Source: Patescibacteria group bacterium
GTDB taxonomy: Bacteria > Patescibacteriota > Minisyncoccia > Phycocordibacterales > UBA9973
Direction of reading: 5' to 3'
NCBI GenBank assembly: GCA_038063535.1
Contig: JBBTUV010000002.1
Coordinates: forward strand, 4,723-68,722
Length of the DNA stretch: 64,000 bases
Shown here one piece after another: positions 3,005 to 55,219 of the stretch (position 1 is the first letter of the stretch; each line of letters begins with the position of its first letter). Below the pieces are notes generated by a model, which worked only from the letters and a program-made list of their open reading frames with translations, was not told the DNA's origin and did not search any database. Both the position numbers and the translations under genes were made by a program.

Positions 3005-3025
3005 TATATTATATAAGCAGTCGGG

Positions 3026-6000
3026 CTAAACTACAATGTTGATAAGTTTGCCGGGCACGAAAAACCTCTTTTTTATTTCTTTACCCTTGAGCCACTTTTC
3101 CATCTCCTGCAATCTTGTTGCAATATAAAAAGCGTCTTCCTCAGTTATGTTTCTTAGAGCCCTGAATTGAGACCGGACTTTGCCGTTTATCTGCACCACA
3201 TAAATTACCTCCCCAATGTCAACTTTGGAAATATCATATAGAGGCCAAGACTCCAGTTGAATGGACTTTTTGTTGCCTAAACTCTGCCAGAGTTCTTCCG
3301 TGATATACGGAGCAAAAGGTGAAAGTAATTTCAGGAAAACTTCAAATTCGTTTTTTGATATAGATTTGGCATCATTGATAAAAATCATGAGCGCAGAAAT
3401 TGCGGTATTAAATTTCATCACCTCAATATCCTCAGAGACCTTTTTGATCGTTTTGTGGAGCAGAGACACTGAAGAATTCGCAGCGGTGTAGGACCCACCG
3501 CGTACTCGCGGAAGGGTTAAGCCGGAAGAATTTTTTAGTGTCTCTGCAATCTTCCAAACTTTTTCGAGAAATCTCCGCGGGCCGATGATCGCCTCTTCGC
3601 TCCAGGGAATCGCCTGGTCGAAGGGCCCCATGAACATCTCATATAGACGCAAGGTGTCCGCGCCGTAGCGCTTTACAATATCGTCGGGGTTAATGGTATT
3701 CCCCTTTGATTTCGACATTTTCTCCCCTCCTTCGGCCAAAATAAGCCCGTGAGAGGTTCTTTTTTGATAAGGCTCGCTGGTGGGCACCAGGCCGAGGTCG
3801 TAGAGAAATTTGTGCCAGAAACGCGAATACAAGAGGTGGAGAGTGGTATGCTCCATGCCGCCGTTGTACCAGTTTACCGGCGTCCAGTACTTAAGTTTCC
3901 TGGGGTCGGCGAATTTTTTAAAATTTTTCGGATCAACATAACGAAGGTAATACCAGGAACTCCCGGCCCAGTTGGGCATGGTGTCGGTTTCCCGCTTCGC
4001 AGGACCTTTGCAGTCAGGACACTTCGTATTTACCCACTTTGAAATATTCGCGAGCGGCGATTCGCCGCTGTCCGTCGGCTGGTAATTTTTTACTTTCGGG
4101 AGCTCAACCGGCAAATCTTTCTCCGGCACGGGCACGTAGCCACACTTCGGGCAATGCACAATTGGTATCGGCTCACCCCAGTATCGCTGCCGCGAAAACA
4201 CCCAGTCCCGCAACTTGAAAGTGGTCTTTTCCTTTCCACCGACAAACCTCACGATTTCCTTTTTTGCCTCTTCTGAATCCATGCCGTCGAATTGCCCTGA
4301 ATTTGCCATAACCCCTTCGCCAGTATAAATATTTTCGGAATTATTTAATGGCTTCCAGGTGAATAATCTCCAGATGTGCGAGGTGGATTCGTCATAAACA
4401 AACTTTTCAACTTCCTTGCGATTTACCCAGTGTACCTCGTGTTTTTCTTTTTCTTCCTCTACAACTTCTTCTCGTTTATCACTTTGCAATTCAAAATAAA
4501 GCCCGTGAAAATGTGCGAAACGATTTACTTGTTTAGGATTGTGATAAAATTTGCTGTGATATTTTCCTAATTCCTTAATAAATTTTAGATCTGTGTACCC
4601 TGTCTCTTCTCGAACTTCCATTCGAGCAGCTTGTTCGGGGGTCTGGCCTTCTTCAATCCCACCGGTAACAAAAGTTCGCCAATCAACTTTTTTCCATTGC
4701 AAGCAGAGATATTTATCTTCCTGCCAATGTTTTACAATTACATCCACTGCGTTGCGTTCTACAAATGGTAACCCTTCACGGGGCTTAGATTGTTCAGTTT
4801 TATCCACCAGAACTTGCTCAATTACTTCACTATTTGGCAAACTGTATTTCTTCGCAAATTCATAGTCGCGCTCGTCGTGCGCCGGTACCGCCATAATCGC
4901 TCCGGTACCGTAATGCGGAAGCACATAGTCGGCGATCCAAACCGGAATTTCTTCTTTGTTTGCGGGGTTTATTGCCCTTACGCCTTTTAATTCCACCCCT
5001 GTTTTTGCTTTATTTTCCGCCGTTCTTTCAATTTCTGTTTTCCTCTTCGCTACTACAGTATACTGTAGTGCCTCCTCTCGGTTTGAAGTTTTTTCTAAAA
5101 GATTTTTAACAAGCGGATGCTCGGGTGCCAGCACTAAATAGGTTGCGCCGAATATGGTGTCGGGGCGGGTAGTGAAGACCTTAATAGAATCAACCCCTCC
5201 CAAACCCTCCCCGAAGGAGAGGGCCTTGGCGACAGCGCTTGAAACTTCATTCTTCTTTTGAAACACCTCATCATTTGTAAAACGAAGGATCCTGTAGCCC
5301 AGCTGATCTAATATCTTGGTCCTTTCCTCGTCCTCATTTTCTTGGTAATCATGGATGTCGCCATCGATTTCAATGACAAGCTTCTTCTCAAGACATACAA
5401 AATCAGCTATAAAGCGATCAATGATATGTTGTCTTCTGAAGTGGTATTGAATTGCGTTCCGGCGCAATAAATCCCAAACTGTTTTTTCTCCCTCGGTTGG
5501 ATTTTTCCTCATTTCTAAGGCTCGGGCTTGCAGGGTTCGCCATAATTCGGGACGAGTAGTAAAAAATCTAGGCATTTCCCCCTCTCCTTCGGGGAGGGCT
5601 GGGGAGGGGTTTTTAATTTCAAATTCAATCTCCGCGCCCTCGCTCTTCCCTATCCAATTACGTTGCGCGAGTTTTATCTGCGGCAGGTAATCGACGGTGT
5701 CTAGGTCTTTGTCGAGCCGCTCGGCGTACTTGGTAATCGCGAGCATCCATTGTTCTTTTTCGCGCTTCTCGACTAGGGCACCACAACGTTCGCAGCAGCC
5801 GTTTACAACTTCTTCGTTGGCAAGTCCTATTTTATCCTTTGGGCACCAATTGATGACTGCTTTTGCTTTATACGCCAGTCCTTTTTTCAAAAACTGCAAA
5901 AATATCCACTGCGTCCATTTGTAATATTTGGGATCAGTTGTGTTCACCTCGTGAGACCAGTCAAAAGACATACCGAGCGATTTGAATTGCTTGCGAAAAT

Positions 6001-6322
6001 TATCGGTATTCTTTTTAGTAATGAGCGCCGGTTGTTTGCCGGTTTTGATGGCGAAGTTTTCAGTCGGAAGTCCAAAAGCATCCCAGCCGATCGGGTAAAG
6101 CACGTTGTAGCCCTCCATGCGGCGCTTGCGCGAGATTATATCCATCGCCGTGTAGCCCCGCACATGGCCAGTGTGCAGGCCATCGGCGGAAGGATACGGA
6201 AACTCCATCAGGGAGTAGTATTTTTTCTTTTTGTCAAAATCCCGAGCGGCAGAGAGTTTTTTATTTTTCTCCCAGTATGCCTGCCATTTCTTTTCTATTT
6301 TCTTATGGTCATAACTCCCCAT
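3026..6322 (-). CDS. leuS: Leucyl-tRNA synthetase carrying two in-frame domain insertions (DUF559 endonuclease-fold and NUDIX)
   Basis: HTGHVRGYTAMDIISR (HIGH motif), KMSKSKGN, TTRPDT and GTGAIMAVPAHDERDYEFAKKY editing-domain motifs, and LRDWVFSRQRYWGEPIPIV. The likely start is the M of MGSYDHKKIEKKWQAYWEKNK at 6322, because the ORF-track start at 6418 would overlap the upstream gene's stop. Total 1130/1098 aa versus about 800-900 for a typical LeuRS. Confidence 0.9.
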   Translation of the reverse strand: MGSYDHKKIEKKWQAYWEKNKKLSAARDFDKKKKYYSLMEFPYPSADGLHTGHVRGYTAMDIISRKRRMEGYNVLYPIGWDAFGLPTENFAIKTGKQPALITKKNTDNFRKQFKSLGMSFDWSHEVNTTDPKYYKWTQWIFLQFLKKGLAYKAKAVINWCPKDKIGLANEEVVNGCCERCGALVEKREKEQWMLAITKYAERLDKDLDTVDYLPQIKLAQRNWIGKSEGAEIEFEIKNPSPALPEGEGEMPRFFTTRPELWRTLQARALEMRKNPTEGEKTVWDLLRRNAIQYHFRRQHIIDRFIADFVCLEKKLVIEIDGDIHDYQENEDEERTKILDQLGYRILRFTNDEVFQKKNEVSSAVAKALSFGEGLGGVDSIKVFTTRPDTIFGATYLVLAPEHPLVKNLLEKTSNREEALQYTVVAKRKTEIERTAENKAKTGVELKGVRAINPANKEEIPVWIADYVLPHYGTGAIMAVPAHDERDYEFAKKYSLPNSEVIEQVLVDKTEQSKPREGLPFVERNAVDVIVKHWQEDKYLCLQWKKVDWRTFVTGGIEEGQTPEQAARMEVREETGYTDLKFIKELGKYHSKFYHNPKQVNRFAHFHGLYFELQSDKREEVVEEEKEKHEVHWVNRKEVEKFVYDESTSHIWRLFTWKPLNNSENIYTGEGVMANSGQFDGMDSEEAKKEIVRFVGGKEKTTFKLRDWVFSRQRYWGEPIPIVHCPKCGYVPVPEKDLPVELPKVKNYQPTDSGESPLANISKWVNTKCPDCKGPAKRETDTMPNWAGSSWYYLRYVDPKNFKKFADPRKLKYWTPVNWYNGGMEHTTLHLLYSRFWHKFLYDLGLVPTSEPYQKRTSHGLILAEGGEKMSKSKGNTINPDDIVKRYGADTLRLYEMFMGPFDQAIPWSEEAIIGPRRFLEKVWKIAETLKNSSGLTLPRVRGGSYTAANSSVSLLHKTIKKVSEDIEVMKFNTAISALMIFINDAKSISKNEFEVFLKLLSPFAPYITEELWQSLGNKKSIQLESWPLYDISKVDIGEVIYVVQINGKVRSQFRALRNITEEDAFYIATRLQEMEKWLKGKEIKKRFFVPGKLINIVV
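4349..4801 (-). other. In-frame NUDIX hydrolase domain inserted into the leuS editing (CP1) region
   Basis: Nudix box GGIEEGQTPEQAARMEVREETGY (G-x5-E-x7-REVxEETG) inside leuS, between AKKYSLPNSEVIEQVL and GVMANSGQFDGM. That position is a loop of the editing domain in canonical LeuRS. The encoding DNA is conspicuously AT/poly-purine rich relative to the rest of leuS. Confidence 0.6.
5180..5605 (-). mobile_element. In-frame DUF559 (Vsr / very-short-patch-repair endonuclease-like fold) module inside leuS, bounded by ~32-bp GC-rich terminal inverted repeats
   Basis: Protein segment LWRTLQARALEMRKNPTEGEKTVWDLLRRNAIQYHFRRQHIIDRFIADFVCLEKKLVIEIDGDIHDYQENEDEERTKILDQLGYRILRFTNDEV has the DUF559 hallmarks (FRRQ, DF.C, IE.DG..H, R-D..L...G...LRF.N). 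It is inserted exactly between the catalytic core (..IEFEIKN) and the TTRPDT start of CP1. The nucleotide flanks aacccctcccaaaccctccccgaaggagaggg (5192..5223) and ccccctctccttcggggagggctggggagggg (5577..5609) are near-perfect inverted copies. The interior is visibly more AT-rich than the flanking leuS sequence. The FTTRP peptide occurs on both sides (RFFTTRPEL and KVFTTRPDT). Confidence 0.6.
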
Positions 6323-6329
6323 TTGCAGT

Positions 6330-7367
6330 TTAAAGAGGCTTCGGGTACGGCGGATAGAGATCTTTATCGATCGTGCGTTCGAAGCATGTGCGGCCGGCCT
6401 GGTGGTCCCAGGATTCATTCATGCCTCCCCCGGGGCTGGGATACGGATATGAGACCGCCATATCCCTGCCCTCCATCATCGGCATGGGGTAAATTGGTCC
6501 GCCGGAATATTCACGCCAGCCTTTCGGTATCGGAAGTGCGAAAGTCGCACAGAGCTCAAAGGTAAGCGGGCTCTTCACGGCATATTCATATTTCTCCCCT
6601 TTCTCGAATTCCGGTGGAACAGGCAAGGACCAGCCCGAGAGCGGGTTCGCAAGCTCGGATACATCCTTCGGCAGCTTTTGTTTCAGCTGCCAGTAATTGA
6701 CTACCTGATATTGAATATTTTGTAGATCCCCCACTCGCCTGTCGTCAAGGCGAAGCTGTCTTTGTTGCCAGGGGCTCCCCATCACAATAAAACTCAAGAC
6801 GATCGCAAGAAGCACGATGAGAGAAGATTTTATGGCACCCCAAAGTCCTACTGAGAAGCCCCAGATCTTCTTCATACCCCGAAGTTCGAAAATAAAATTA
6901 AATCCGACAAACGCAGCAGTGAGGAGCGCAATGGCAACTTTCAGGATGAAACGGGTGGTTATCTCCCCGGCGATGAAGTAACGCACAAGGGTGACAAGAT
7001 CGATGACTATGACGAGCGCGGAGAGAAATAAAATTATGTAGATGACCCACTTGCGGATAGTTTCATCAAGCCGGCCGACGCCGCGCGCGTAAAGTTTCTT
7101 CCAGAAATACGCGAGAAGAAGAAAAACCGGGAAGAAGATTATGAGCGTCGAGAGCGCCCCGCGAATCCCTTCGTAATCATAAGAGTTAAAGCCGTACTGG
7201 TAAGTAGCGTTCAAGACATCCGGGAAACGCTTGTTCAGGGTTTCGAAAACGAGATTCAGGAACGAAACGACGGTAGTAACGAGTGTAATTAGCACCCCGA
7301 GCGACAAAAAGAAAAAACCGATATTAAACCTGGGCGTATTACCGCCTAAATTTTCTTGTGTTTCCAT
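6330..7367 (-). CDS. Polytopic membrane protein with a C-terminal Pro/Tyr-rich soluble tail (DUF5671-like architecture), hypothetical
   Basis: 345-aa ORF with about 6 hydrophobic helices in the N-terminal 200 aa and a soluble tail with PYPSPGGG and YPPYPKPL. Its stop at 6330 lies just upstream of the preferred leuS start. Confidence 0.4.
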   Translation of the reverse strand: METQENLGGNTPRFNIGFFFLSLGVLITLVTTVVSFLNLVFETLNKRFPDVLNATYQYGFNSYDYEGIRGALSTLIIFFPVFLLLAYFWKKLYARGVGRLDETIRKWVIYIILFLSALVIVIDLVTLVRYFIAGEITTRFILKVAIALLTAAFVGFNFIFELRGMKKIWGFSVGLWGAIKSSLIVLLAIVLSFIVMGSPWQQRQLRLDDRRVGDLQNIQYQVVNYWQLKQKLPKDVSELANPLSGWSLPVPPEFEKGEKYEYAVKSPLTFELCATFALPIPKGWREYSGGPIYPMPMMEGRDMAVSYPYPSPGGGMNESWDHQAGRTCFERTIDKDLYPPYPKPL

Positions 7368-21254: not shown

Positions 21255-21326
21255 AAAAACACATAAAATTATATCATTTTTCCCTTTCCAATTGAAAAAA
21301 TAATGTGGATAGGTCATAATGAATGG

Positions 21327-22055
21327 ATGACAAACGAGGAGGTTCGAAGATACCAAGACCCTGAAACCGGCAAGCAGTGGTTTTCGATGGTTGACATAAT
21401 TGCTTTAACTACCTCCAGTAAAAATCCGCAGAATTACTGGAAAGTTCTAAAAAGTCGTTTAAAGAAAAGCGCTCCCGAGTTGGTTACAAAGTGTAACCAA
21501 CTTAAAATGAAAGCAAAAGATGGGAAATATTACCTCACCGACGCCGCCGATGTGGAAACCCTGACCGAGATCATCAAACTGATTCCGGGGGCAAATGTGC
21601 ATAGCCTCGAGGAATGCGTAGCACCGTTTGTAACAACCCCTCCAACCCCCACCCCCTCTTCTGTTTCCCCCAAAGGGGGAGAAGAATTACCCTCTCCTTC
21701 GGAGAGGGTTAGGGAGAGGTCAGAAGTCCCGACGTCCGAAGGAGTCGGGACCCCGACCGAAAGCGTCGGGGCTGAACTCCTCCTCGACGCTTACGAATCC
21801 GGAAATTATATTTTCATCGAAGCCTTCATCGCCGGCGTTTCATTGGAAGATTTGAACATAGACGTTGAGCCGAGAAAAATAATCATCGAGGGAAAAAGAA
21901 CGAGATCGGGAGACGATTATTTCACACAAGAATTACAATGGCTTTCCTTCTCCCGCACACTCGATCTCCCCGCTCCCGTTGACACGGAGAGAGCGGAAGC
22001 AACTGAAAGGGACGGGCATCTTACGATCCGTCTTCCGAAGGTGATTGTTCAGTAG
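21327..22055 (+). CDS. Hsp20/alpha-crystallin domain protein with an N-terminal Bro-N-like domain and a linker encoded by GC-rich palindromic elements
   Basis: C-terminal NYIFIEAFIAGVSLEDLNIDVEPRKIIIEGKRT...FSRTLDLPAPVDTERAEATERDGHLTIRLPK is a clear alpha-crystallin domain. The N-terminal GKQWFSMVDIIALTTSSKNPQNYWKVLKSRL...DGKYYLTDAADVETLTEIIKLIP loosely resembles Bro-N (.PWFVAKDVA..LG..NP....). The linker TTPPTPTPSSVSPKGGEELPSPSERVRERSEVPTSEGVGTPTESVG is encoded by the palindromic element at 21636..21771. Start taken as the M at 21327; the ORF-track start is 21303. Confidence 0.55.
   Translation: MTNEEVRRYQDPETGKQWFSMVDIIALTTSSKNPQNYWKVLKSRLKKSAPELVTKCNQLKMKAKDGKYYLTDAADVETLTEIIKLIPGANVHSLEECVAPFVTTPPTPTPSSVSPKGGEELPSPSERVRERSEVPTSEGVGTPTESVGAELLLDAYESGNYIFIEAFIAGVSLEDLNIDVEPRKIIIEGKRTRSGDDYFTQELQWLSFSRTLDLPAPVDTERAEATERDGHLTIRLPKVIVQ
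21636..21771. repeat. Cluster of GC-rich palindromic units inserted in-frame: a core-less derivative of the leuS DUF559-element TIRs plus two cccgac-N7-gtcggg hairpins
   Basis: aacccctccaacccccacccc (like the leuS left TIR start), tttcccccaaaggggga hairpin, ccctctccttcggagaggg (like the leuS right TIR), then gtcccgacgtccgaaggagtcgggac and cccgaccgaaagcgtcgggg hairpins. All visible directly. Confidence 0.7.
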
Positions 22056-25000
22056 AAGTTTCCTCCCCGCCCTGCCCGTCCTCTGGCGTGGCTTCTGAAG
22101 GAGGGGCAGGGGTAGTTGTTTCTTCTGGCAGAGGTTCCGAAATTACTTCCGGTTCGGGAGGAGTTTCCGCCGGAGGCGGATCAGCCTCGGGCTGAGGTTC
22201 AGGTGCTGGCTCGGGAGGAGTTTCCTCTTCCGGCATCGGTTCCGGGCTCGGCGGTGGCGGTAGCGGAGCGCTTTGATAAATTATCGTTGGCGGTGGAGAT
22301 GGCGCAGCCGCAGGCTCACTCCAATCGAGCACCAACCCGTCACCCAAGCTCTCTGCGGTCCTCGCGTCTTTCACGCCAAGCGCTATCCAGGAGAAGCGAA
22401 TATTGTGCGGAGCTTTTTTGCTGAGTAGTATTGTGAATCCGGTCTCATCTTTGTCGAGGATGACCGATGAGATCTTCGCCGAGAAAATATCCGAGAGCGC
22501 GACGTCGTCGATATTATCCGTCGCTTCAAACGTGATCGAGGCGGTTACCGCCGGCGTCGCTGCATAGGCCTCGGTGAAATCCACCCGCACTCTCTGGTCC
22601 CCTTCTTTTACGATGGCAAATCCTGCAGTGTCTTCATTGAAAGTAGGCGGCATCGTAAATTCCACCGGCCCGCCGAAAGTGACCCCGTTCTCGAGGCCCT
22701 CGGTGTTGCCGAAGAAAGTAAGCCCGGCGAACTTCGCGTCTTTTGCATTTAAAGTATCAGTGTCGATCGCGTTTGCGGTAAGACTAGGTGTGACTATCGA
22801 GATAGCCGCTGCTAGTTTATCAGTGAGGAGTTCGGAGAAATCAAGCTCTTCGTTCACACCTCCCCCATTATCACTCATGAATTTGGCTAGGATCGCTTTT
22901 GCCATATTTGAAGTCGTACCATTCTCCTCACCTGGAAGCGTGAGGCCGGCGAGCTTGTTGAGCCGCTCTCCGTTCCAATACCCCTGCTCGACGTAGACCA
23001 TGACTGTGCCGGCGTCACCGACCCAAGGCTCGAGTGCCTTCCCGATGACCGTGCCTGCTTTAGTCGCCTTTGTTGCCTTGCCCTGCTCGCTCGAGGTCGT
23101 CAGATAATCACCCGCGGCGATCTCCGGAGAATCGGCAGAGATCTTCACCGGCACGCGCCCGGAGAGCGCGACCGGCATCGGGTTGTCCTCTTCCCTAATG
23201 TTGTAACCGGTCGAAGAGAAATCGCCGGTGTTGTCTGAGATTATGCCGATAACATTCGTTTGATAAGCTTTGTTTGATTTTATTAACTTAGTTATTCGGC
23301 CTTTTACTTTCTCCCAGTCGATATTGCCATCGGTCATGTCATAGGTATTGACCAGCTCACTACCAGTCACTACTATATCTCCAACTTCCATTCCCGTCGC
23401 TACCGGATACATTTCGGCATAGTCAGCAGCCGGAGCTGCGTTGCAGTCGCGGATTTCATAAGCGGTTCCCGCGGTCGGGGCGGTCGCATTTGCCAAAGAT
23501 GAACATACGGCGGTGGTGCTTGCGGTTGCGGAAAGTCCCATACTCGTTATCCCGGCATTTGTGACTTTAAATTTGGAAACACTATTATTTTGCAAATCAA
23601 TAAAGTTACCGGAAAATGTCCCACTTCCGGTCGCAAAGCTCATGAGGAGCCCGGTACCGGTGAAAGTCGAGGTGTTATGATAGAATTGCGCCATCTGCGC
23701 GGCGGAGGTCATGGTCGTGCTATAGAGGCGAAGAATGTCTCCCTGAGTGGTCCCGGTGGACTCGCCGTAAATAGCAGCTGGTAATGCTACTCCACCGGCA
23801 AGACCATTGGTAAAGGCTTGAAGACCGAAAGTCGCCCCGGTTGTGCGGATACCTGTATTGGTGCCAGCCGTATTGGAGCCAGCATTGGAAACGACTTCCA
23901 GACCGCGCACGAGATTAGCAAGAGTTGTATTGTCAATGCTTCGGACAATTTGGTTGATAGCGGTATTGGCGGTAGTGGTGGGAGCATTGTTGACGACAAA
24001 ACGGTTTCCGACCTGTGTTCCGCCGGCGGAAGGATTGAAGGTATAATTTCCAAATACACCCGCAATAGAAGTGGTGGCGCTGTTGGCAGAAATTGTGTTC
24101 TCGAGATTTACCCGAGCCGATGTCTCGGAAGATGCTTCTCCGACTGAAAGATTTCCTAAATCATTTATTACCAGACCGATGGCATTGGAGCTCAACCTGG
24201 CTGTATGTAACGCATACAAAACATCCGGAGTAGTATCGTTGGCGTTATCGGAAAACGCGACATCAACGGTTAGAGAAGTGGTGCTAGCGATGGCGGTGAC
24301 AGTTCTAGTTTCTCCTGTGACAGTAATTCTGTCGCCGACGACAAGTTCAGTGGTAAAAAGAGTACTTACTCCCGTGACGGTAGTGGAAGCCGCTGGGTCA
24401 ATAGTACCAGTAAGAACTGCAGTAGCTTTTCCTGTGGTGCGGACATTGCCCGCGACGTCCAGGCGGGTGAGAGGAGAAGTTTGGTTGATGCCTACGTTGC
24501 CGCCAAAGTAATTGGTGCCAGTCGTCGAGTAGAGCGCAAAATTGTTGGTACCGCCTATAGGAGCGCTGTCTATGTAAACGCTCGCCATGTTGGTAAAGCT
24601 CCCCGCTCCTCCTTCCGATGGCCCCCCGACCCGCAATCCCGCGCCCCAAGTACTGGCACCCGTCGGGTTGAGACTCGTCCCGCTAGAGATATTCACCATA
24701 CTTATGTCGCCGGTCCCTGATGTGTTGGCGATAGAAGATGGGCGGACAATAACCGCCGCGGTATCATTTGCGGCGGTCGCCGCAGAGGTGTATGCGAGGT
24801 CTCCTGCTCCACCGACAGCCAAAAGATATCGGAGGTTCGTCGCGCCTATTCCTACCGCGCTATTAGCAGGATCGGCGACGAATAAATTGGCATTTGCGCC
24901 TGCAATACCCGCTCGGATGACACCGTTCACGTCAAGGAGCTGCGCCGGGGCCGCCGTCCCTATCCCGACGTTGCCTAAATCATTAATGGCAAGAGCTATT

Positions 25001-26664
25001 GCTCCGGAGCTAAGTTTAGCTGTATGTAACGCATACAAAACATCCGGAGTAGTATCGTTGAGAGTATCGGTAAAAGCTGTATCTACGGTAAGAGAAGTGT
25101 TGGTTGCGATAGCCGTGACAGTTCTAGTTTCTCCTGTGACAGTAATTCTGTCGCCGATGACTAATTCGGTAGTAAACAAAGTCCCGACGCCTGTGACAGT
25201 GGTTGATGCTATAGCATCAATGCTACCCGTCAATACTGCTGTGGCTTTGCCGGTAGTACGGACATTGCCGGCAACGTCGAGAAAAGTGAGAGGGGCGGTT
25301 TGATTGATACCAACGTTGCCTGTACTTGTAATTCTTAATCGTTCGATGAGAGATGAGGTTGCTTGGGTAGCAAGAGCTAGGTACCCTGCACCATTTCCTG
25401 AAGTACCATTTTCTTTTCGTCCAGCTATGGCTGCAAACGTACTAATGACACTTGTGCCAGTCGAATTACCGCCAAGTGAAACTTGTCCACCAAGGTTTAT
25501 ACCCTGGGAGTTTGTTGTTCTTACAAAAACGTTCCCATAAGAGTCAGTAACTCCATTTGCGCTAAGAACATCTAGAGCCGTAAAAGGCGAACTTGTTCCA
25601 ATCCCGACGCTGCCTGATCCAAAAATAGCTGCGTAGTTATTTGTTCCGCCGGTTGCAGTGGCATAAAGACCGACGTTGGTTGATGTTCCAGTATGAGTAT
25701 TCGAAAAATATCCACCGTAAGTTGTTTGTGCTCCCGTTGCATTCGCGCCAGAAAGAGAAACATTAATTCCTTTTTGACCTGTTAAACCGGCGGTACCTGT
25801 TATCGCAAGGTCAATGAGTGCTCCGGAAGAAAGAGAAGAAGAAGCGGCATATATACCTGTACCCGTAGTAAGAGAGTTGCCGGCCACGCTAAGTGCGCTC
25901 GCGGTGGTCACCTGAGTGGTATTGGCTGAAGTAAGAGTCGCGCCGGTCCCTGTGAATCCTGCGGCGCAGGCGAAGGCGCCGGTAGAGTTGGTGAGCGTGC
26001 AGCCGGTTGAACCGGAGCCCCCGCCGAGCAAAATATCTCCGGTTGAAGTGTTGTTCAAATTCAAAGCTCCGGAAGCGCCGCCATCAACCGCAAGCGGTGC
26101 GGTGCCGACCGATGCGAGCCGGGCGGTTGTCGCGTGGCCTAAAAGAATTCCACCGGTAGTAAGAACCGGGATCTGGCTGTCGGTCGCCGATTGCGCCGGG
26201 GTAAATCCGCCGACGGTTTTCGAGTTGATGGCGTAGCCGGAGGAAACTACCCGCGGCCGCGGATCGAGAGTCTCGTATGACTCACCTGTACCCCCCACAT
26301 CACACGTTCCAGATTTTGCAGAGACCTGTACGTCCACATACACCGTATCTGTCGTTTGAAAATTAAAATCGAGCGTATCGACATTGCCGATGTATGCATC
26401 GAAGACGCCGTTTCTTACGACGAGAGTGTCCGGGTTCGGCGCGCCCGTAGGCCAGACTTTCGAGCCGGCTGTGGCGGCATCGTAAAGCGCAAACTTGAAA
26501 CAATAATCTGTGCCCGAGCCGCCGAGCAAACTTTCACTGGAGTTGTAGAGCCGGCCTTGGAAGTTTATGATAAGCGGGACGCCCGCCGCGGAGCGCGCAA
26601 AAAGAGGAACAAGAAAAACTGCTATGATGAGAACTGAAAAAAAAGAGACGAGTCGGTTTCTCAC
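22021..26664 (-). CDS. Giant 1547-aa secreted Thr/Gly/Ala/Ser-rich protein with large internal repeats and a Pro-rich C-terminal tail
   Basis: Signal peptide MRNRLVSFFSVLIIAVFLVPLFARSAAG. Two copies of a segment of about 110 aa (GNVRTTGKATAVLTGSIDAIASTTVTGVGTLFTTELVIGDRITVTGETRTVTAIATNTSLTVD... and its near-identical copy). The C-terminus is PSPPPTIIYQSAPLPPPPSPEPMPEEETPPEPAPEPQPEADPPPAETPPEPE. No C-terminal TM. Confidence 0.7.
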   Translation of the reverse strand: MRNRLVSFFSVLIIAVFLVPLFARSAAGVPLIINFQGRLYNSSESLLGGSGTDYCFKFALYDAATAGSKVWPTGAPNPDTLVVRNGVFDAYIGNVDTLDFNFQTTDTVYVDVQVSAKSGTCDVGGTGESYETLDPRPRVVSSGYAINSKTVGGFTPAQSATDSQIPVLTTGGILLGHATTARLASVGTAPLAVDGGASGALNLNNTSTGDILLGGGSGSTGCTLTNSTGAFACAAGFTGTGATLTSANTTQVTTASALSVAGNSLTTGTGIYAASSSLSSGALIDLAITGTAGLTGQKGINVSLSGANATGAQTTYGGYFSNTHTGTSTNVGLYATATGGTNNYAAIFGSGSVGIGTSSPFTALDVLSANGVTDSYGNVFVRTTNSQGINLGGQVSLGGNSTGTSVISTFAAIAGRKENGTSGNGAGYLALATQATSSLIERLRITSTGNVGINQTAPLTFLDVAGNVRTTGKATAVLTGSIDAIASTTVTGVGTLFTTELVIGDRITVTGETRTVTAIATNTSLTVDTAFTDTLNDTTPDVLYALHTAKLSSGAIALAINDLGNVGIGTAAPAQLLDVNGVIRAGIAGANANLFVADPANSAVGIGATNLRYLLAVGGAGDLAYTSAATAANDTAAVIVRPSSIANTSGTGDISMVNISSGTSLNPTGASTWGAGLRVGGPSEGGAGSFTNMASVYIDSAPIGGTNNFALYSTTGTNYFGGNVGINQTSPLTRLDVAGNVRTTGKATAVLTGTIDPAASTTVTGVSTLFTTELVVGDRITVTGETRTVTAIASTTSLTVDVAFSDNANDTTPDVLYALHTARLSSNAIGLVINDLGNLSVGEASSETSARVNLENTISANSATTSIAGVFGNYTFNPSAGGTQVGNRFVVNNAPTTTANTAINQIVRSIDNTTLANLVRGLEVVSNAGSNTAGTNTGIRTTGATFGLQAFTNGLAGGVALPAAIYGESTGTTQGDILRLYSTTMTSAAQMAQFYHNTSTFTGTGLLMSFATGSGTFSGNFIDLQNNSVSKFKVTNAGITSMGLSATASTTAVCSSLANATAPTAGTAYEIRDCNAAPAADYAEMYPVATGMEVGDIVVTGSELVNTYDMTDGNIDWEKVKGRITKLIKSNKAYQTNVIGIISDNTGDFSSTGYNIREEDNPMPVALSGRVPVKISADSPEIAAGDYLTTSSEQGKATKATKAGTVIGKALEPWVGDAGTVMVYVEQGYWNGERLNKLAGLTLPGEENGTTSNMAKAILAKFMSDNGGGVNEELDFSELLTDKLAAAISIVTPSLTANAIDTDTLNAKDAKFAGLTFFGNTEGLENGVTFGGPVEFTMPPTFNEDTAGFAIVKEGDQRVRVDFTEAYAATPAVTASITFEATDNIDDVALSDIFSAKISSVILDKDETGFTILLSKKAPHNIRFSWIALGVKDARTAESLGDGLVLDWSEPAAAPSPPPTIIYQSAPLPPPPSPEPMPEEETPPEPAPEPQPEADPPPAETPPEPEVISEPLPEETTTPAPPSEATPEDGQGGEETSTEQSPSEDGS
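24151..24500. repeat. Copy 1 of an approximately 350-bp near-identical direct repeat inside the giant gene
   Basis: atttcctaaatcatttattaccag...gctgtatgtaacgcatacaaaacatccggagtagtatcgttg...gtgacagttctagtttctcctgtgacagtaattctgtcgccga... recurs at 24971..25320 with roughly 85-90% identity by eye. Confidence 0.7.
24971..25320. repeat. Copy 2 of the approximately 350-bp direct repeat (period about 820 bp)
   Basis: See copy 1; ttgcctaaatcattaatggcaag...gctgtatgtaacgcatacaaaacatccggagtagtatcgttg...gtgacagttctagtttctcctgtgacagtaattctgtcgccga... Confidence 0.7.
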
Positions 26665-26706: not shown

Positions 26707-27447
26707 TTACTCTAAAATTTCAAATTCATCACTCACAATTGAAATTTTTTTTCTCCTGCGAACAAAGTAAATTGCCAAGCTCCCTCCTGTAATCAAAATC
26801 AAGGTGGTTACATAGAGTAACCAACTGAAATCGTCTTGTTTAAAGGGCTCGGAGGAAATTGATGCAGGTATCTCATTTTGTAGAAGAATTTCGGGTTCCG
26901 GCTGAATTTTAGTTGAGCTCTCCTTGACAAAGAGGGGGGGCGAGGGTGAAGTAATCTTATTCTCGCCGCCGGGCGTCGGCGCATTAGCTCGCCAAGCACC
27001 TGATATTTTCCCTATTGTATTTCCATCCCCTGCGCCGCCCAGGCTCGACGAGTAGGAAACTTGATCAAGTATCTCGTCTTCATTTTTTAGCGCAAGGGTC
27101 TCCCCGGAATTGTTGAGCGAATAACTCGAATCGAAAAGGTTGCCCGCGAACGCCGGCCAGTCGGATTTGAACTTGGCGGCATCTGCGGCAATAACGGCAT
27201 AACCACCTGGAGGAACGCTCTCAAGACCTGCGACGAATACTAGCTTATGGTTCGTATCCGCTTCGAAAAATTTAAGCTCGGAGAGACCGATCGGCCCAGA
27301 GGAATCATTGAAAATCTCCACCCATTCCCTGCTCTCATCGGCACCGGATAGATCGTACATTATCTCCGAAAACTCCAGCCCGGCAAAAACGCGATATGCA
27401 GAGAAAAAGAGAATCCCCACCAAAATTAAAACAGGACATTTTGCCAT
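26707..27447 (-). CDS. Lamin-tail-domain (LTD) protein with an N-terminal signal/anchor and C-terminal TM helix
   Basis: FSEIMYDLSGADESREWVEIFNDSSGPIGLSELKF matches the LTD signature (EI..N..G.D...EWIEL.N). C-terminal TM WLLYVTTLILITGGSLAIYFV then RRRKK. Start taken at MAKCPVLILVGILFF. Confidence 0.55.
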   Translation of the reverse strand: MAKCPVLILVGILFFSAYRVFAGLEFSEIMYDLSGADESREWVEIFNDSSGPIGLSELKFFEADTNHKLVFVAGLESVPPGGYAVIAADAAKFKSDWPAFAGNLFDSSYSLNNSGETLALKNEDEILDQVSYSSSLGGAGDGNTIGKISGAWRANAPTPGGENKITSPSPPLFVKESSTKIQPEPEILLQNEIPASISSEPFKQDDFSWLLYVTTLILITGGSLAIYFVRRRKKISIVSDEFEILE

Positions 27448-27461
27448 GTTATGATAATAGC

Positions 27462-40732: not shown

Positions 40733-41278
40733 TTGCCTAAAAAAATTCTACAAAAGGAAAATAAGATTTTGCGCGAGGTTGCCAAAGAAGTACCTCTGGT
40801 CGAGATCGGTAAACCAAAAACTAAAAAAATTCTGAAAGAAATGTCCCAGGCGCTCGCGAGGGAGTCCGACGGCGTCGCGCTCGCCGCACCGCAGATCGGA
40901 TATCCGCTTCGGATTTTCTTGGTAACGGGGAAAATTTTTATGAAAGCCCCGACGCCCAAAGGGGTCGGGGTCCCGACCGCAAGCGTCGGGAAAAAACCCA
41001 AAGATCTTGTATTCATAAATCCGAAAATCACGAAGCTCTCACGCGAAAAAGCCTGGTTGCCGGAAGGCTGCCTCTCCGTCCGGCCATTCTACGGCAAAAC
41101 CCATCGCTCGAAGAAGGCAACGATAGCGGCCTATGATGAGAGGGGTAAAAAAATCACCAGAGGCGCCTCGGGCCTATTGGCGCAGATCTTCCAGCATGAG
41201 ACGGACCACCTTGAGGGAATTCTTTTTATCGATCATGCGAAGGACATATATGAAGAGAAACCCGAAATCAAAACTTAG
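40733..41278 (+). CDS. def: Peptide deformylase with an element-encoded insertion loop
   Basis: GVALAAPQIG (motif 1), EGCLSV (motif 2), QHETDHLEGILF (motif 3). There are 25 residues (KIFMKAPTPKGVGVPTASVGKKPKD) between motif 1 and LVFINP where canonical Def has about 7. Confidence 0.85.
   Translation: MPKKILQKENKILREVAKEVPLVEIGKPKTKKILKEMSQALARESDGVALAAPQIGYPLRIFLVTGKIFMKAPTPKGVGVPTASVGKKPKDLVFINPKITKLSREKAWLPEGCLSVRPFYGKTHRSKKATIAAYDERGKKITRGASGLLAQIFQHETDHLEGILFIDHAKDIYEEKPEIKT
40947..40990. repeat. Two tandem GC-rich hairpins (ccccgac-gcccaaagg-ggtcgggg; tcccgac-cgcaagc-gtcggga) inserted in-frame in def
   Basis: Visible directly. Same unit type as 21722..21771. Confidence 0.75.
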
Positions 41279-54739: not shown

Positions 54740-55219
54740 ATGAAATATTTAATCGGCATTGTTATTTTAGCAATTTTGGGCGTAGGAATTTATTCGACTT
54801 CAAATAAAGAGAACGAGGTGGCCGCACCGGGGCCGGCTCCGGCGGAAGAAATTTCGGAAGAAGAGGAGAGCACACCAACGGAAACTCCGACACAGGGATC
54901 GCCTACTGAGCCGGGGAGCTACGAGCCGTACTCGCCGGAGAAGCTCGCTCGTGCGGAGAGTGGCGATGTGGTACTTTTCTTCCGCGCGTCTTGGTGCCCG
55001 ACATGTCGGGCACTCGACGCGAATATCCGCACGAATTCTGGCAGCATTCCCGGGGCAGTGACAGTTCTTGATGTCGATTACGACAACTCGACCGAGCTCA
55101 AGCAGAAATACGGCGTCACCTACCAGCACACATTGGTGCAAGTGGATGCCTCTGGCAACCTGATCGCAAAGTGGCAGGGCTCCCCCACTCTCTCTGACTT
55201 GGTTTCAAAAATTCGGTAG
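54740..55219 (+). CDS. Membrane-anchored thioredoxin-fold thiol:disulfide oxidoreductase (TlpA/ResA-like)
   Basis: N-terminal TM, Pro/Glu-rich linker, then VVLFFRASWCPTCRALD (WCPTC active site). Confidence 0.7.
   Translation: MKYLIGIVILAILGVGIYSTSNKENEVAAPGPAPAEEISEEEESTPTETPTQGSPTEPGSYEPYSPEKLARAESGDVVLFFRASWCPTCRALDANIRTNSGSIPGAVTVLDVDYDNSTELKQKYGVTYQHTLVQVDASGNLIAKWQGSPTLSDLVSKIR

What the first reader, a model, noticed from the sequence alone, without database searches (positions are those of the whole stretch)
21636..21771. Family of GC-rich palindromic elements that insert in-frame into protein-coding genes (RPE-like), related to the leuS element termini
Two hairpin unit types recur inside ORFs without breaking the frame. 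One is ccctc(t)ccttcgg(g/a)gaggg. The other is cccgac-N7-gtcggg.

Copies seen:
- the leuS DUF559-element termini (5192..5223, 5577..5609)
- a composite core-less copy forming the linker of the Bro-N-like / Hsp20 fusion (21636..21771)
- two tandem hairpins lengthening a loop of peptide deformylase (40947..40990)

In each host protein they encode Pro/Gly/Ser/Glu/Val-rich loop peptides. This is the behaviour described for Rickettsia palindromic elements. Seeing it here, apparently tied to a DUF559-carrying parent element, suggests a MITE-like family whose parent is the leuS element. That would be a concrete mechanism for generating new linkers and domain fusions in a reduced genome.
Basis: seen in the sequence. 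Interest (0 to 1): 0.75.

Follow-up and report, generated by a model that had tools for sequence, protein, structure and literature searches.

The report
Hairpin insertion elements inside bacterial genes
Two unrelated kinds of small GC-rich hairpin DNA have inserted, without breaking the reading frame, into essential genes of an ultra-small groundwater bacterium; one kind is a previously undescribed 45-base double hairpin found throughout the Patescibacteria, in protein genes, a ribosomal RNA gene and next to tRNA genes.

Summary
The window comes from a Patescibacteria MAG in Hainich groundwater.

**Two independent families, not one:**
- **Type 2 (CCCGAC…GTCGGG)** is a 45-nt element made of two abutting 7-bp hairpins. 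It has an invariant bulged G, and every pair the search did not fix covaries.
  - A scan of 596 Gb of genomes hit almost only Patescibacteria.
  - Copies lie in unrelated housekeeping genes, a 23S rRNA gene, intergenic DNA, and duplicated tRNA 5' ends.
  - Genic copies, unlike intergenic ones, are filtered for length (a multiple of 3) and for orientation.
  - In def orthologs, synonymous sites are 83% identical inside the element versus 32% outside it.
  - Element-bearing def genes are scattered among empty relatives.
  - Copies within one genome resemble each other more than copies in other genomes.
- **Type 1 (CCCTCTCC-TTCG-GGAGAGGG + G-rich tail)** forms the inverted termini of DUF559 endonuclease cassettes. 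It occurs in many phyla, mostly as solo or paired arms. The cassette sits at the same leuS codon in at least six other organisms.

types 1 and 2 never co-occur elsewhere. The Bro-N/Hsp20 fusion predates the elements, which only lengthen its linker.

The behaviour resembles Rickettsia palindromic elements, but this is a new family. What mobilises it is unknown.

The parts
21727..21771 (+). Type-2 double-hairpin element, copy 1. 45 nt = 15 codons, encoding VPTSEGVGTPTESVG, in the Bro-N/Hsp20 linker. Hairpin 1 is T-CCCGAC-G-TCC-GAA-GGA-GTCGGG-A; hairpin 2 is C-CCCGAC-CGAAAGC-GTCGGG-G.
   Evidence: Repeat D6. Covariance model 63.1 bits, E = 5e-11. Fold z = -3.4 as DNA and -3.7 as RNA. The 5' flank AAG fits the family consensus A-(G/A) before the element.
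40947..40991 (+). Type-2 double-hairpin element, copy 2. 45 nt = 15 codons, encoding APTPKGVGVPTASVG, in a variable loop of peptide deformylase.
   Evidence: Repeat D6. Covariance model 64.9 bits. Fold z = -4.6 and -4.0. Many orthologs lack it. AlphaFold pLDDT is below 50 for residues 73-86, between confident strands.
21690..21720 (+). Type-1 arm standing alone: hairpin CCCTCTCC-TTCG-GAGAGGG plus the G-rich tail GGGAGAGG. It encodes (L)PSPSERVRER in the Hsp20 linker.
   Evidence: 87-90% identical to the leuS arms (D14, I2). 0 expected by chance.
21657..21686 (+). A further C/G hairpin (core TTCCCCC-AAA-GGGGGAG, 21665-21681), encoding SPKGGE. The C-rich run 21638-21656 begins AACCCCTCC, which resembles the outer terminus of the leuS arm. 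This may be a degenerate left arm.
   Evidence: Hairpin scan. Fold of the linker shows four hairpins, z = -3.3 and -3.7. The similarity to the leuS left arm is weak (9 of 10 nt on the outer terminus only).
5192..5223 (.). Type-1 arm: one terminal inverted repeat of the DUF559 cassette in leuS (the 3' end on the coding strand, encoding ALSFGEGLGGV).
   Evidence: Inverted repeat I1, 32 nt, 94% complementary.
5580..5611 (.). Type-1 arm: the other terminal inverted repeat of the cassette (the 5' end on the coding strand, encoding NPSPALPEGEGE).
   Evidence: Inverted repeat I1. As RNA the two arms pair with each other as a ~31-bp long-range stem, z = -5.0.
5216..5566 (-). DUF559 (Vsr-like PD-(D/E)XK endonuclease) domain between the arms. 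The whole cassette 5192-5611 is 420 nt = 140 codons, in frame with leuS.
   Evidence: Pfam PF04480, E = 6.5e-32, profile positions 3-108 of 109. Local profile hit E = 1e-47. The same site is occupied in L168, L191, L192, L227, P0241 and P0252.
21303..22055 (+). Host gene: Bro-N-like domain + linker + Hsp20.
   Evidence: Pfam HSP20 at aa 167-247. The N-domain aligns to the Bro-N domain of P0206 at 56% identity.
40733..41278 (+). Host gene: peptide deformylase.
   Evidence: Pfam PF01327, E = 3.6e-41.
3026..6418 (-). Host gene: leucyl-tRNA synthetase, which also carries a NUDIX domain.
   Evidence: Pfam.

Best explanation
The finding covers two unrelated families of small GC-rich palindromic insertion elements.

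Type 2 is a non-autonomous mobile element, 41-48 nt long (45 nt in both window copies), found across the Patescibacteria.
- Anatomy: two directly abutting hairpins, each with a 7-bp stem. The core CCGAC/GTCGG is invariant and the outermost pair is free to covary. Hairpin 1 also has an invariant unpaired G and a 2-3 bp covarying inner stem.
- Insertion (inferred): it inserts in either orientation, 3' of A-(G/A), with no visible target duplication. Targets include protein genes, rRNA, tRNA-derived sequence and spacers.
- Selection (shown by pattern): what survives in genes is filtered. Surviving copies have a total length that is a multiple of 3, have no stop codon, favour one orientation, and sit in loops, linkers or termini. 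There they are translated as 13-16 residue P/T/G/V/S-rich disordered loops.
- Mobilisation (inferred): the conserved folded shape is probably what an unidentified trans-acting enzyme recognises.

Type 1 is the terminal inverted repeat of DUF559 endonuclease cassettes that insert in-frame at fixed sites of conserved genes, in a homing-like way. Far more numerous solo or paired arms, such as the one in the Hsp20 linker, are either remnants or copies mobilised in trans.

In the window both types simply lengthen regions that were already variable: a def loop and an old inter-domain linker.
For: Phylum restriction and excess over chance:
- About 110 stretches are named CPR lineages and 7 are unclassified MAGs. 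One is a Gammaproteobacteria-labelled MAG at 46% GC. One is Rhodoplanes at 70% GC.

Structure under selection:
- All 5 pairs not fixed by the search covary. Covariation score is 0.194 versus 0.084 when shuffled (0 of 500 shuffles as high).
- There are 146 double-change cells versus 50 expected, and slid registers collapse.
- The bulged G is present in 100 of 102 distinct loop sequences. All three inner pairs are Watson-Crick in 60%, versus 9% with shuffled partners.

Promiscuous location:
- 61 host ORFs span 110 Pfam families, including ribosomal protein S3, SMC, UvrA, PIF1, class II aaRS, FBP aldolase, sigma-70, DnaJ and GatB.
- Copies occur in all three phases and both orientations.
- One copy lies inside a 23S rRNA gene.
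- At least 14 copies split duplicated tRNA 5' ends exactly after G10.

Selection filters act only in genes:
- Core length is 1 mod 3 in 46 of 62 genic copies versus 11 of 43 non-genic copies.
- Orientation is 52:10 in genes versus 10:9 between genes.
- Among internal genic copies the figures are 36:4 for orientation and 30 of 40 for length.

Gain, loss and turnover:
- Element-bearing def genes are scattered among empty relatives; for example P0089 is 86% identical to the empty P0086.
- Decaying copies exist, with covariance-model scores falling from 64 to 51, 41 and 39 bits.
- 4-fold sites are 83% identical in the element versus 32% in the rest of def.
- Orthologs read the same element in different internal frames.
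- Similarity of the variable parts is 0.625 within a genome and 0.479 between genomes (0 of 2000 permutations as high).

Tolerated loop:
- pLDDT is below 50 for residues 73-86, between confident strands.
- The segment is also length-variable among solved deformylases.

Type 1 and DUF559:
- 5 of the 8 DUF559 domains in the type-1 loci abut an arm.
- DUF559 homologs from many phyla read through such hairpins at their termini.
- The cassette sits at the same leuS codon in L168, L191, L192, L227, P0241 and P0252, and in UvrD and DegT genes elsewhere.
Against: - No mobilising enzyme has been identified.
- No strain-level presence/absence polymorphism was seen for the two window copies.
- No clean filled/empty junction was obtained. 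The closest pair is 23% diverged at DNA level.
- The identical stem core across a very deep phylum is unusual for selfish repeats, which normally diverge with their transposase. It could instead mean that a host function maintains the motif.
- The partial tRNA 5' duplication that accompanies tRNA-linked copies is not explained by any simple insertion model.
- For type 1, mobilisation of solo arms by DUF559 is inference only.
Confidence: 0.72

Rival explanations
1. There is one MITE-like family whose autonomous parent is the DUF559 element in leuS. The 21636-21771 segment is a core-less composite copy, and the family creates new linkers and domain fusions.
For: - The type-1 arm at 21690-21720 is 87-90% identical to the leuS arms.
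- Core-less inverted arm pairs do exist elsewhere, for example L212 with two perfect arms 46 nt apart, and about 12 pairs at 45-48 nt.
- The linker is lengthened from about 14 aa (P0122) to 47 aa.
Against: - Type 2 has no association with DUF559 or with type 1 anywhere else.
- Type 1 occurs across host GC of 31-72%, whereas type 2 is restricted to CPR.
- The fusion is ancestral to all homologs.
- No target-site duplication is visible.
- DUF559 is an endonuclease family, not a known transposase.
Confidence: 0.08
2. The type-2 double hairpin is not selfish DNA. It is a host-functional structured motif, such as a protein-binding site on DNA, or an RNA hairpin affecting processing, stability or translation, and selection keeps it at particular sites.
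For: - There is strong covariation, and the stem core is identical across the whole phylum.
- The DNA is conserved at orthologous sites where flanking synonymous positions are saturated.
- Copy number is low, roughly one per 65 kb.
- Placement just upstream of tRNA genes is stereotyped.
Against: - Copies sit in every context: all frames, both strands, 110 host families, rRNA and spacers.
- Distribution among orthologs is patchy and some copies are decaying.
- Copies within a genome are more alike than copies between genomes.
- Genic copies show signs of being merely tolerated (length and orientation filters, disordered loop) rather than positioned.
- They are slightly rarer in genes than random positions are: 52% versus 65%.
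Confidence: 0.13
3. The elements are intervening sequences removed at the RNA level, for example by cleavage at the hairpins or at the long arm-arm stem followed by ligation. On this view the host proteins never contain the extra residues.
For: - The two leuS arms form a ~31-bp long-range stem that closes off the DUF559 ORF.
- CPR genes are known to be rich in introns and rRNA insertions (PMC13011429; the L058 23S gene also has two group I introns).
Against: - Excision would remove any need for frame preservation. Yet genic type-2 copies are strongly biased to lengths that are multiples of 3.
- All 8 DUF559 cassettes inspected are in frame with their hosts.
- No Rfam intron or ribozyme match was found.
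Confidence: 0.04
4. These are ordinary low-complexity linker or loop sequence, or an assembly artefact, with no insertion involved.
For: - The peptides are P/G/S/T-rich and lie in regions that are variable in all homologs.
Against: - There is 85-94% DNA identity between unrelated genes, with palindromic structure.
- Type 1 is read in different frames.
- Synonymous sites are conserved.
- Identical sequence was recovered from four independent samples.
- Hundreds of copies exist in other assemblies.
Confidence: 0.01

Closest known systems
Rickettsia palindromic elements (RPE; Ogata et al. 2000 and 2002, as summarised in PMC10969869)
   Same: - Palindromic repeats inserted in-frame into many unrelated housekeeping genes of a reduced genome.
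- They are translated as extra peptide segments compatible with protein function.
- Intergenic copies also exist.
   Different: - RPEs are about 100-150 bp, fall into ten families, and are confined to Rickettsia.
- The type-2 element is 41-48 nt with a different architecture (two abutting 7-bp hairpins with a bulged G).
- It has a different host phylum, spans a whole phylum, and also sits in rRNA and in tRNA-derived decoys.
REP / REPIN elements with RAYT (Y1, IS200/IS605-like) transposases (PMC2817692, PMC3116915)
   Same: - Short imperfect palindromes with a bulge.
- Complementary mutations preserve the hairpin.
- A conserved short motif sits next to the hairpin foot: GT(A/G)G in REPs, A-(G/A) here, and TTAG or GTAG at tRNA sites.
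- They occur as doublets.
- Copies within a genome are similar to each other.
- An ORF flanked by two inverted units (RAYT) parallels DUF559 flanked by two type-1 arms.
   Different: - REPs are extragenic by definition, number more than 100 per genome, and are species-specific in sequence.
- About half of type-2 copies are intragenic, density is roughly one per 65 kb, and the stem core is the same across the phylum.
- Doublets here are direct and abutting, not inverted.
- No RAYT has been linked to them.
- DUF559 is a PD-(D/E)XK nuclease, not an HUH/Y1 enzyme.
Prokaryotic MITEs (for example Correia, RUP, Nezha; review PMC10969869)
   Same: - Small, non-autonomous and structured.
- They can generate in-frame fusions.
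- Type-1 cassettes have 32-nt terminal inverted repeats, and core-less arm pairs exist.
   Different: - No target-site duplication was seen for either type.
- No parent IS with a recognised transposase is known.
- Type 2 has no terminal inverted repeats in the MITE sense; it is two tandem hairpins.
Homing endonuclease genes (free-standing, or in inteins and introns)
   Same: - The DUF559 cassette occupies the same codon position of leuS in at least seven organisms.
- It also sits in conserved sites of UvrD and DegT genes.
- It encodes an intact endonuclease domain.
   Different: - There is no intein or intron around it. It is translated in frame as part of the host protein and is bounded by GC-rich hairpin arms.
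- DUF559 is not an established homing endonuclease family.
GC clusters of yeast mitochondrial genomes; rRNA intervening sequences (from my own knowledge, not checked here)
   Same: - Short GC-rich palindromic mobile units in AT-richer genomes that can sit in coding or rRNA sequence as extra hairpins.
   Different: - Different sequences, hosts and (presumed) mechanisms.
- No sequence relationship was tested.

Membership tests
Rickettsia palindromic elements (RPE) | About 100-150 bp repeats belonging to the described RPE families, in Rickettsia genomes | tested here: not met
   The element is 41-48 nt. The host is Patescibacteria. RPE sizes and host range are taken from PMC10969869. No RPE consensus library was available for a direct sequence comparison.
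Rickettsia palindromic elements (RPE) | In-frame insertion into many unrelated protein-coding genes, translated as an extra segment | tested here: met
   61 host ORFs span 110 Pfam families. There is a length multiple-of-3 filter in genes. The window copies are 15 codons each. Translation itself is inferred, not observed.
Rickettsia palindromic elements (RPE) | Inserted segment lies in a position compatible with the fold (a surface loop) | tested here: met
   In the def model, pLDDT is below 50 and the chain is coil for residues 73-86, between confident strands. The loop is hypervariable among 120 orthologs. The other window copy is in an inter-domain linker.
REP / REPIN (RAYT-associated) | Imperfect palindrome with hairpin-preserving complementary changes | tested here: met
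REP / REPIN (RAYT-associated) | Conserved GT(A/G)G head next to the palindrome | tested here: inconclusive
   The 5' flank is A (81-93%) then G/A (95%) directly before the element, and TTAG or GTAG at tRNA sites. At those sites the bases belong to the tRNA, not to the element.
REP / REPIN (RAYT-associated) | Extragenic location and more than 100 copies per genome | tested here: not met
   52% of copies are in open frames of at least 200 aa. Density is roughly one per 65 kb.
REP / REPIN (RAYT-associated) | A RAYT gene flanked by two inverted units in the same genome | not tested
   Whole genomes could not be scanned. No candidate was seen in the 8-kb loci.
MITE (type-1 arms with the DUF559 cassette as parent) | Terminal inverted repeats shared between the autonomous and the short forms | tested here: met
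   32-nt arms, 94% complementary, flank DUF559. The same unit stands alone at 21690-21720. Core-less pairs occur in L212 and other loci.
MITE (type-1 arms with the DUF559 cassette as parent) | Target-site duplication | tested here: not met
   No direct repeat flanks the leuS cassette. The DUF559 N-terminal motif (Y/F)xT(A/T)xPxx(Y/W) is family-wide, so its resemblance to LeuS VFTTRPDT is probably not a duplication.
MITE (type-1 arms with the DUF559 cassette as parent) | The parent encodes a transposase that mobilises the short forms | not testable with these tools
   DUF559 is a Vsr-like PD-(D/E)XK endonuclease domain. No activity data exist.
IS200/IS605-derived palindrome-associated elements | Hairpin ends, insertion 3' of a fixed short motif, no target duplication | tested here: inconclusive
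   These features fit. However, I recall the features of this family from memory, and no Y1 transposase has been linked to the element.
IS200/IS605-derived palindrome-associated elements | Strand-specific insertion relative to replication | tested here: not met
   Intergenic copies between co-directional genes are 10 same and 9 opposite. The sample is small.
Homing endonuclease cassette (DUF559 element) | The same conserved site is occupied in orthologous genes of different organisms, with an intact nuclease ORF | tested here: met
   The window plus L168, L191, L192, L227, P0241 and P0252 are all at ...EFKIK|...|..VFTTRPDT of LeuS. The Pfam match is full length.
Any Rfam RNA family | Score at or above the family's gathering threshold | tested here: not met
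   The best matches are whalefall-1 at 18 bits (threshold 37) and anti-hemB at 19.4 bits (threshold 49.5). Nothing matched the leuS arms.

The most novel reading that the evidence does not exclude
The 45-nt double hairpin may be a new class of mobile DNA specific to the Patescibacteria. On this reading it is propagated by an as-yet unknown enzyme conserved across the phylum, which recognises the folded CCGAC hairpins with the bulged G. When it hits a tRNA gene (after G10 of the D-stem), its insertion chemistry copies the first 15-27 nt of the target. That leaves an intact tRNA preceded by an element-bearing decoy. This would be a target-restoring insertion mechanism not described for REPs, MITEs or RPEs. 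It would be a steady source of new loops in proteins and of extra hairpins in rRNA in these minimal genomes.
Probability: 0.3. Interest if true: 0.85.

Novelty: new variant of a known kind. Interest (0 to 1): 0.68.

Why it matters
Patescibacteria have some of the smallest bacterial genomes and are thought to carry little repetitive or selfish DNA.

- **A selfish repeat in essential genes.** A phylum-wide, structure-constrained hairpin element is tolerated inside ribosomal protein, aaRS, repair and rRNA genes. So even these genomes carry a proliferating repeat.
- **A mechanism for variable loops.** It explains the hypervariable loops and linkers seen in CPR proteins. The same def loop and the same Hsp20 linker are occupied by at least four different hairpin-derived peptide families in different lineages.
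- **Practical uses.** The element can be a lineage marker. It is also a source of annotation artefacts (odd P/G/T-rich peptides, split tRNA-like fragments) and a caution for alignments and phylogenies of CPR marker genes.
- **DUF559.** The DUF559 cassettes with hairpin arms, inserted in frame at fixed sites of leuS, uvrD-like and other genes in several phyla, point to a function for a large domain of unknown function: a mobile, homing-like endonuclease.
- **Testable questions.** The tRNA-decoy architecture and the unknown mobilising enzyme can both be tested directly.

Tried and rejected
- **Exact-protein look-up of def** failed twice because the recorded gene uses a different start. The Hsp20 protein located the source instead.
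- **Rfam** gave no family for either unit.
- **Viral contigs** gave one hit, a 73% GC actinophage-like contig full of PDPT repeats. I judged it chance, so there is no evidence for a phage vehicle.
- **Strain-level polymorphism** was not seen. The 90% clusters of both window proteins hold only start-codon variants or fragments.
- **Clean empty-site junction:** the closest filled/empty def pair (P0089/P0086) is 77% identical at DNA level and the loop has diverged. Boundaries could not be read directly; they were inferred from flank statistics and covariation.
- **Replication-linked strand bias** as the cause of the 52:10 orientation bias was rejected, because intergenic copies are 10:9.
- **Simple tandem duplication** as the origin of the tRNA decoys was rejected. 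The sequence upstream of the decoy does not resemble the spacer before the real tRNA.
- **Pre-existing decoys as neutral landing pads** are unlikely, because decoys without the element are rare (at most 3-4 of 17).
- **FTTRP at the start of the DUF559 block** as a target duplication of LeuS VFTTRPDT was rejected. The motif (Y/F)xT(A/T)xPxx(Y/W) is shared by DUF559 homologs outside leuS.
- **The CCCGAC-AT-GTCGGG palindrome at 54996-55011** is just the codons of a thioredoxin WCPTC motif.
- **Physical linkage of types 1 and 2** elsewhere was not found.
Full report
**Source and observation**

The window matches contigs from Hainich groundwater metagenomes. The same Hsp20-fusion protein was recovered from four samples. 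NCBI names the MAG 'Patescibacteria group bacterium'. GC content is 48%.

- **Type-1 unit.** CCCTCTCCTTCGG(G/A)GAGGG occurs three times, with none expected in 100 shuffles.
- **Repeat search.** An unbiased search returns two results.
  - 32-nt inverted arms lie at 5192-5223 and 5580-5611 (94% complementary), and a third copy at 21690-21720 is 87-90% identical to them.
  - A 47-nt direct repeat, 21724-21770 versus 40944-40990, is 85% identical.
- **Host frames.** All copies lie in open frames: LeuS, a Bro-N-like/Hsp20 protein, and peptide deformylase.
- **Level of conservation.** Type 1 is read in different frames in leuS (ALSFGEGLGG) and in the Hsp20 gene (LPSPSERVRERS). So what is conserved is DNA, not peptide.

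**Type 2: anatomy**

An alignment of 119 distinct copies shows two directly abutting hairpins.
- Each has a 7-bp stem: N-CCCGAC...GTCGGG-N'.
- Hairpin 1 has an unpaired G after the outer stem (100 of 102 distinct loop sequences). This is followed by a 2-3 bp inner stem and a 2-4 nt loop.
- Hairpin 2 has a 5-7 nt loop.

My search fixed the twelve CCCGAC/GTCGGG pairs. The five pairs it did not fix all covary:
- Outermost pair of hairpin 1: CG 65, UA 43, UG 5, AU 1, GC 1.
- Outermost pair of hairpin 2: UA 71, CG 39, UG 7.
- First inner pair: CG 86, AU 17, UA 9.

The formal controls agree.
- Covariation score is 0.194 versus 0.084 for shuffled partners (0 of 500 shuffles as high).
- There are 146 double-change cells versus 50 expected (0 of 500).
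- Slid registers collapse.

Variants such as TCCGAC...GTCGGA doublets confirm that CCGAC/GTCGG is the invariant core.

Both window copies are canonical 45-nt members. They score 64.9 and 63.1 bits with the covariance model, and nothing else in the window exceeds 11 bits. They fold as predicted, with z = -3.4 to -4.6.

**Type 2: distribution**

- About 110 stretches are from named CPR lineages: Saccharibacteria, Nomura-, Kaiser-, Zambryski-, Lipton-, Yanofsky-, Adler-, Doudna-, Wolfe-, Taylor-, Giovannoni-, Vogel- and Shapirobacteria, Paceibacterota and Minisyncoccia.
- Seven are from unclassified MAGs.
- One is from a MAG labelled Gammaproteobacteria (46% GC).
- One is from Rhodoplanes (70% GC, probably chance).

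Among 2.9 million viral contigs there was a single match, in a high-GC contig, which I judged to be chance. Rfam has no matching family.

The model finds 11 further copies in about 710 kb of CPR DNA. That is roughly one per 65 kb, of the same order as the window's two per 64 kb.

**Type 2: where it sits, and what selection does to it**

- **In genes.** Of 120 copies, 62 lie in open frames of at least 200 aa. Random 42-nt segments of the same loci do so 65% of the time. Genes are therefore tolerated, not preferred.
- **Hosts.** The host ORFs are unrelated housekeeping genes: 110 Pfam families in 61 ORFs. They include ribosomal protein S3, SMC/RecN, UvrA, PIF1, class II aaRS, FBP aldolase, sigma-70, DnaJ and GatB.
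- **Frames.** All three phases and both orientations occur. They give PTPEGVGVPTESVG, PRRPEGSGSRPKASG or PDAPKRSGPRPKRRG.
- **In rRNA.** One copy lies inside a 23S rRNA gene, with contiguous rRNA sequence on both sides (L058).

Genic copies carry two signatures of purifying selection that intergenic copies lack.
- **Length.** The core is 1 mod 3 (so the whole element is a multiple of 3) in 46 of 62 genic copies versus 11 of 43 non-genic copies.
- **Orientation.** It is 52:10 in genes (p = 6e-8), versus 10:9 for intergenic copies lying between co-directional genes.
- **Internal copies.** Among the 40 genic copies with at least 30 aa of open frame on each side, the figures are 36:4 for orientation and 30 of 40 for length.

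Insertion is therefore orientation-neutral, and the gene copies are a filtered subset that is read through.

The flank consensus is A (81-93%) then G/A (95%) immediately 5' of the element, with no visible target duplication.

**Type 2: evidence for gain, loss and proliferation**

The def loop between the GxGLAAPQIG...I strand and ...VFINP is hypervariable.
- About 11 of 120 orthologs carry PTPxGVGxPT..SVG there.
- Others carry three other odd peptide families: PPRP..PSQGE, LLNENNxV and PDPLLVKERG.
- On a tree of the rest of the protein, the element-bearing genes are scattered.
- For three of them the nearest relative is empty, at 85-87% identity.

I tested synonymous sites in seven def orthologs chosen by protein similarity alone.
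- Four-fold degenerate third positions are 83% identical inside the element (139 of 168).
- They are 32% identical in the rest of the gene (188 of 583).

Further observations point the same way.
- Some copies are decaying (CCA ACA..., CTG ACG...), and their model scores fall from 64 to 39 bits.
- Orthologs in other host families keep the element at the same site but read it in different internal frames, for example SGSGSRP versus GVGVPT.
- The variable parts of copies from the same assembly are more alike than those from different assemblies: 0.625 versus 0.479, with 0 of 2000 permutations as high.

Together these fit an element that proliferates within genomes, lands repeatedly in the few permissive sites of small proteins, and then decays.

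The AlphaFold model of the window deformylase (mean pLDDT 76) puts the 15 inserted residues in a coil. pLDDT is below 50 for residues 73-86, between confident strands. Solved deformylases also vary in length at this point.

**Type 2 and tRNA genes (unexplained)**

At least 14 intergenic copies lie in a duplicate of the first 15-27 nt of the tRNA gene immediately downstream.
- The element splits the duplicate exactly after G10 (...TTAG|element|CTCAGTTGG...). In one case the split is after G15.
- The duplicate reproduces the idiosyncrasies of its own tRNA (Lys, Ala, Thr, Val, Arg, Ile, Gly).
- It usually starts 65-89 nt upstream.
- Of 63 tRNAs in these loci, 17 have such a decoy, versus 2.6% in a mismatched control.
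- Decoys without the element are rare.
- The sequence upstream of the decoy is unlike the spacer, so this is not a simple tandem duplication.

Either the insertion chemistry copies part of the target, or only rare rescued events survive an otherwise lethal hit in the tRNA D-stem.

**Type 1 and DUF559**

It is therefore not CPR-specific.
- Only 5 of 121 units lie within 150 nt of a DUF559 domain.
- But 5 of the 8 DUF559 domains in those loci abut a unit, and those domains sit in open frames of 485-1259 aa.
- DUF559 homologs from many phyla read through such hairpins at their ends, for example NPLPEGEGE, PLSFGEGLG, SPPLEGLGEV and PSPKGAGE.

The cassette recurs at fixed sites.
- It occupies the same LeuS position (...EFKIK|...|..VFTTRPDT) in L168, L191, L192, L227, P0241 and P0252.
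- It is in frame in a UvrD-type helicase (L127, L128) and in a DegT aminotransferase (L206).
- In the window it is 420 nt = 140 codons.
- Its arms pair as a ~31-bp long-range stem, z = -5.0.

About 45 units have an inverted partner.
- Inner distances are 18-125 nt, with a cluster at 45-48 nt and L212 perfect at 46 nt.
- When DUF559 lies between the arms the distance is 260-510 nt.

A parent-and-derivative relationship is therefore plausible for type 1. However, there is no target duplication, and DUF559 is a Vsr-like nuclease, not a known transposase.

**The two types are independent, and the fusion is old**

- The 868 kb of DNA around type-2 copies contains no DUF559 domain.
- In 860 kb of the CPR loci no type-1-like hairpin lies within 500 nt of any of the 120 type-2 copies.
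- The 723 kb of type-1 loci contain no CCCGAC hairpin. The covariance model, run on 623 kb of these loci, finds only two weak hits, on one contig.
- The segment 21636-21771 is therefore a pile-up, not a composite. It holds a C/G hairpin (21657-21686), a solo type-1 arm (21690-21720) and a type-2 element (21727-21771).

All aligned homologs of the host protein (206-306 aa, down to 33% identity) are already Bro-N + Hsp20 with a hypervariable linker.
- The closest ones carry other hairpin-like peptides there: NPPLLSKEGLRGG, PPRPSDTPPSQGGE and PVRSRAHAEGASPSDRGAATSNG.
- The shortest linker (P0122) is itself a type-1-like unit.

The elements lengthen the linker from about 14 to 47 residues. They did not make the fusion.

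**Comparison with known systems, and novelty**

The behaviour matches Rickettsia palindromic elements: in-frame insertion in unrelated housekeeping genes, at tolerated positions (PMC10969869). Size, architecture, sequence and host all differ, so this is not an RPE.

It shares several features with REP/REPIN elements: hairpin-preserving changes, a bulge, a short motif at the hairpin foot, doublets, and an ORF flanked by two inverted units. It fails their definition on extragenic location and copy number, and no RAYT is linked to it (PMC2817692).

Searches of the held literature found no description of these hairpins in Patescibacteria, or of hairpin arms around DUF559.

I class it as a new variant of a known kind. 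The tRNA-decoy architecture and the phylum-wide constancy of the stem core are its most unusual features.

Noticed in passing
L006, L009, L044, L048, L050, L054, L069, L078, L101, L105, L106, L110, L119 and others (for example L009:6714-6800): Type-2 elements sit inside a duplicated copy of the first 15-27 nt of the tRNA gene just downstream. The duplicate is split exactly after G10 of the D-stem, and usually starts 65-89 nt upstream of the intact tRNA. It matches that tRNA's own sequence. L050 has two successive decoys. No simple insertion or tandem-duplication model explains this.
   Followed up: partly
L058:3504-3547 (23S rRNA gene at 1208-4040): A type-2 element lies inside a Saccharibacteria 23S rRNA gene, which also carries two group I introns. 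The rRNA sequence is contiguous on both sides of the element.
   Followed up: partly
window 5192-5611; L168, L191, L192, L227, L127, L128, L206: A DUF559 endonuclease cassette bounded by hairpin arms is translated in frame at the same LeuS codon position in at least seven organisms. It also sits in UvrD-type helicase and DegT aminotransferase genes. Its arms pair as a ~31-bp long-range stem. In L168 a further hairpin peptide (NPSLDLPKGEV) is nested inside the DUF559 domain. In L227 the 3' arm is tandemly duplicated.
   Followed up: partly
window 4409-4753 (-), aa 556-670 of the leuS ORF: The LeuS ORF carries a NUDIX hydrolase domain (Pfam E = 5e-14) just after the editing-domain match. L227's LeuS has the same NUDIX insert, so it is a lineage feature rather than an assembly error.
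   Followed up: no
window 22166-22180; L011:3039-3068, L041:7040-7069, L008:4137: A third GC-rich hairpin family, TCCGCC-N3-6-GGCGGA, is the most frequent GC-rich 6-bp hairpin stem in the CPR loci (36 in 860 kb) and is often a tandem doublet. The window copy lies in the C-terminal tail of the 1547-aa ORF 22021-26664(-), next to further hairpins (22056-22200).
   Followed up: no
def loop and Hsp20-fusion linker of homologs P0004, P0022, P0042, P0052, P0064, P0081, P0083, P0091, P0092, P0094, P0099, P0101, P0111, P0123-P0127, P0133: The same def loop and the same Hsp20 linker are occupied in other lineages by other recurrent peptide families: PPRP..TPPSQGGE (in both proteins), PDPLLVKERG, LLNENNxV and PVRSRAHAEGASPSDRGAATSNG. 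These probably derive from further hairpin element families.
   Followed up: partly
window 21478-21506 and 26802-26830: A 29-nt near-palindrome AGTTGGTTACAAAGTGTAACCAACT is repeated at 86% identity. It occurs once in the Bro-N-like domain (encoding ELVTKCNQLK) and once in the unrelated ORF 26707-27468(-), which shows no similar peptide. The cause is unknown.
   Followed up: partly
window 54996-55011: The perfect palindrome GCCCGACATGTCGGGC looks like an element half-site. It is in fact the codons of a thioredoxin-like WCPTC active site, so the resemblance is chance.
   Followed up: yes
L219:11160-11209 and 13294-13344: This is the only type-1 metagenome contig with weak covariance-model hits to the type-2 element (28-33 bits). 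It may be a CPR contig carrying diverged copies of both families.
   Followed up: no
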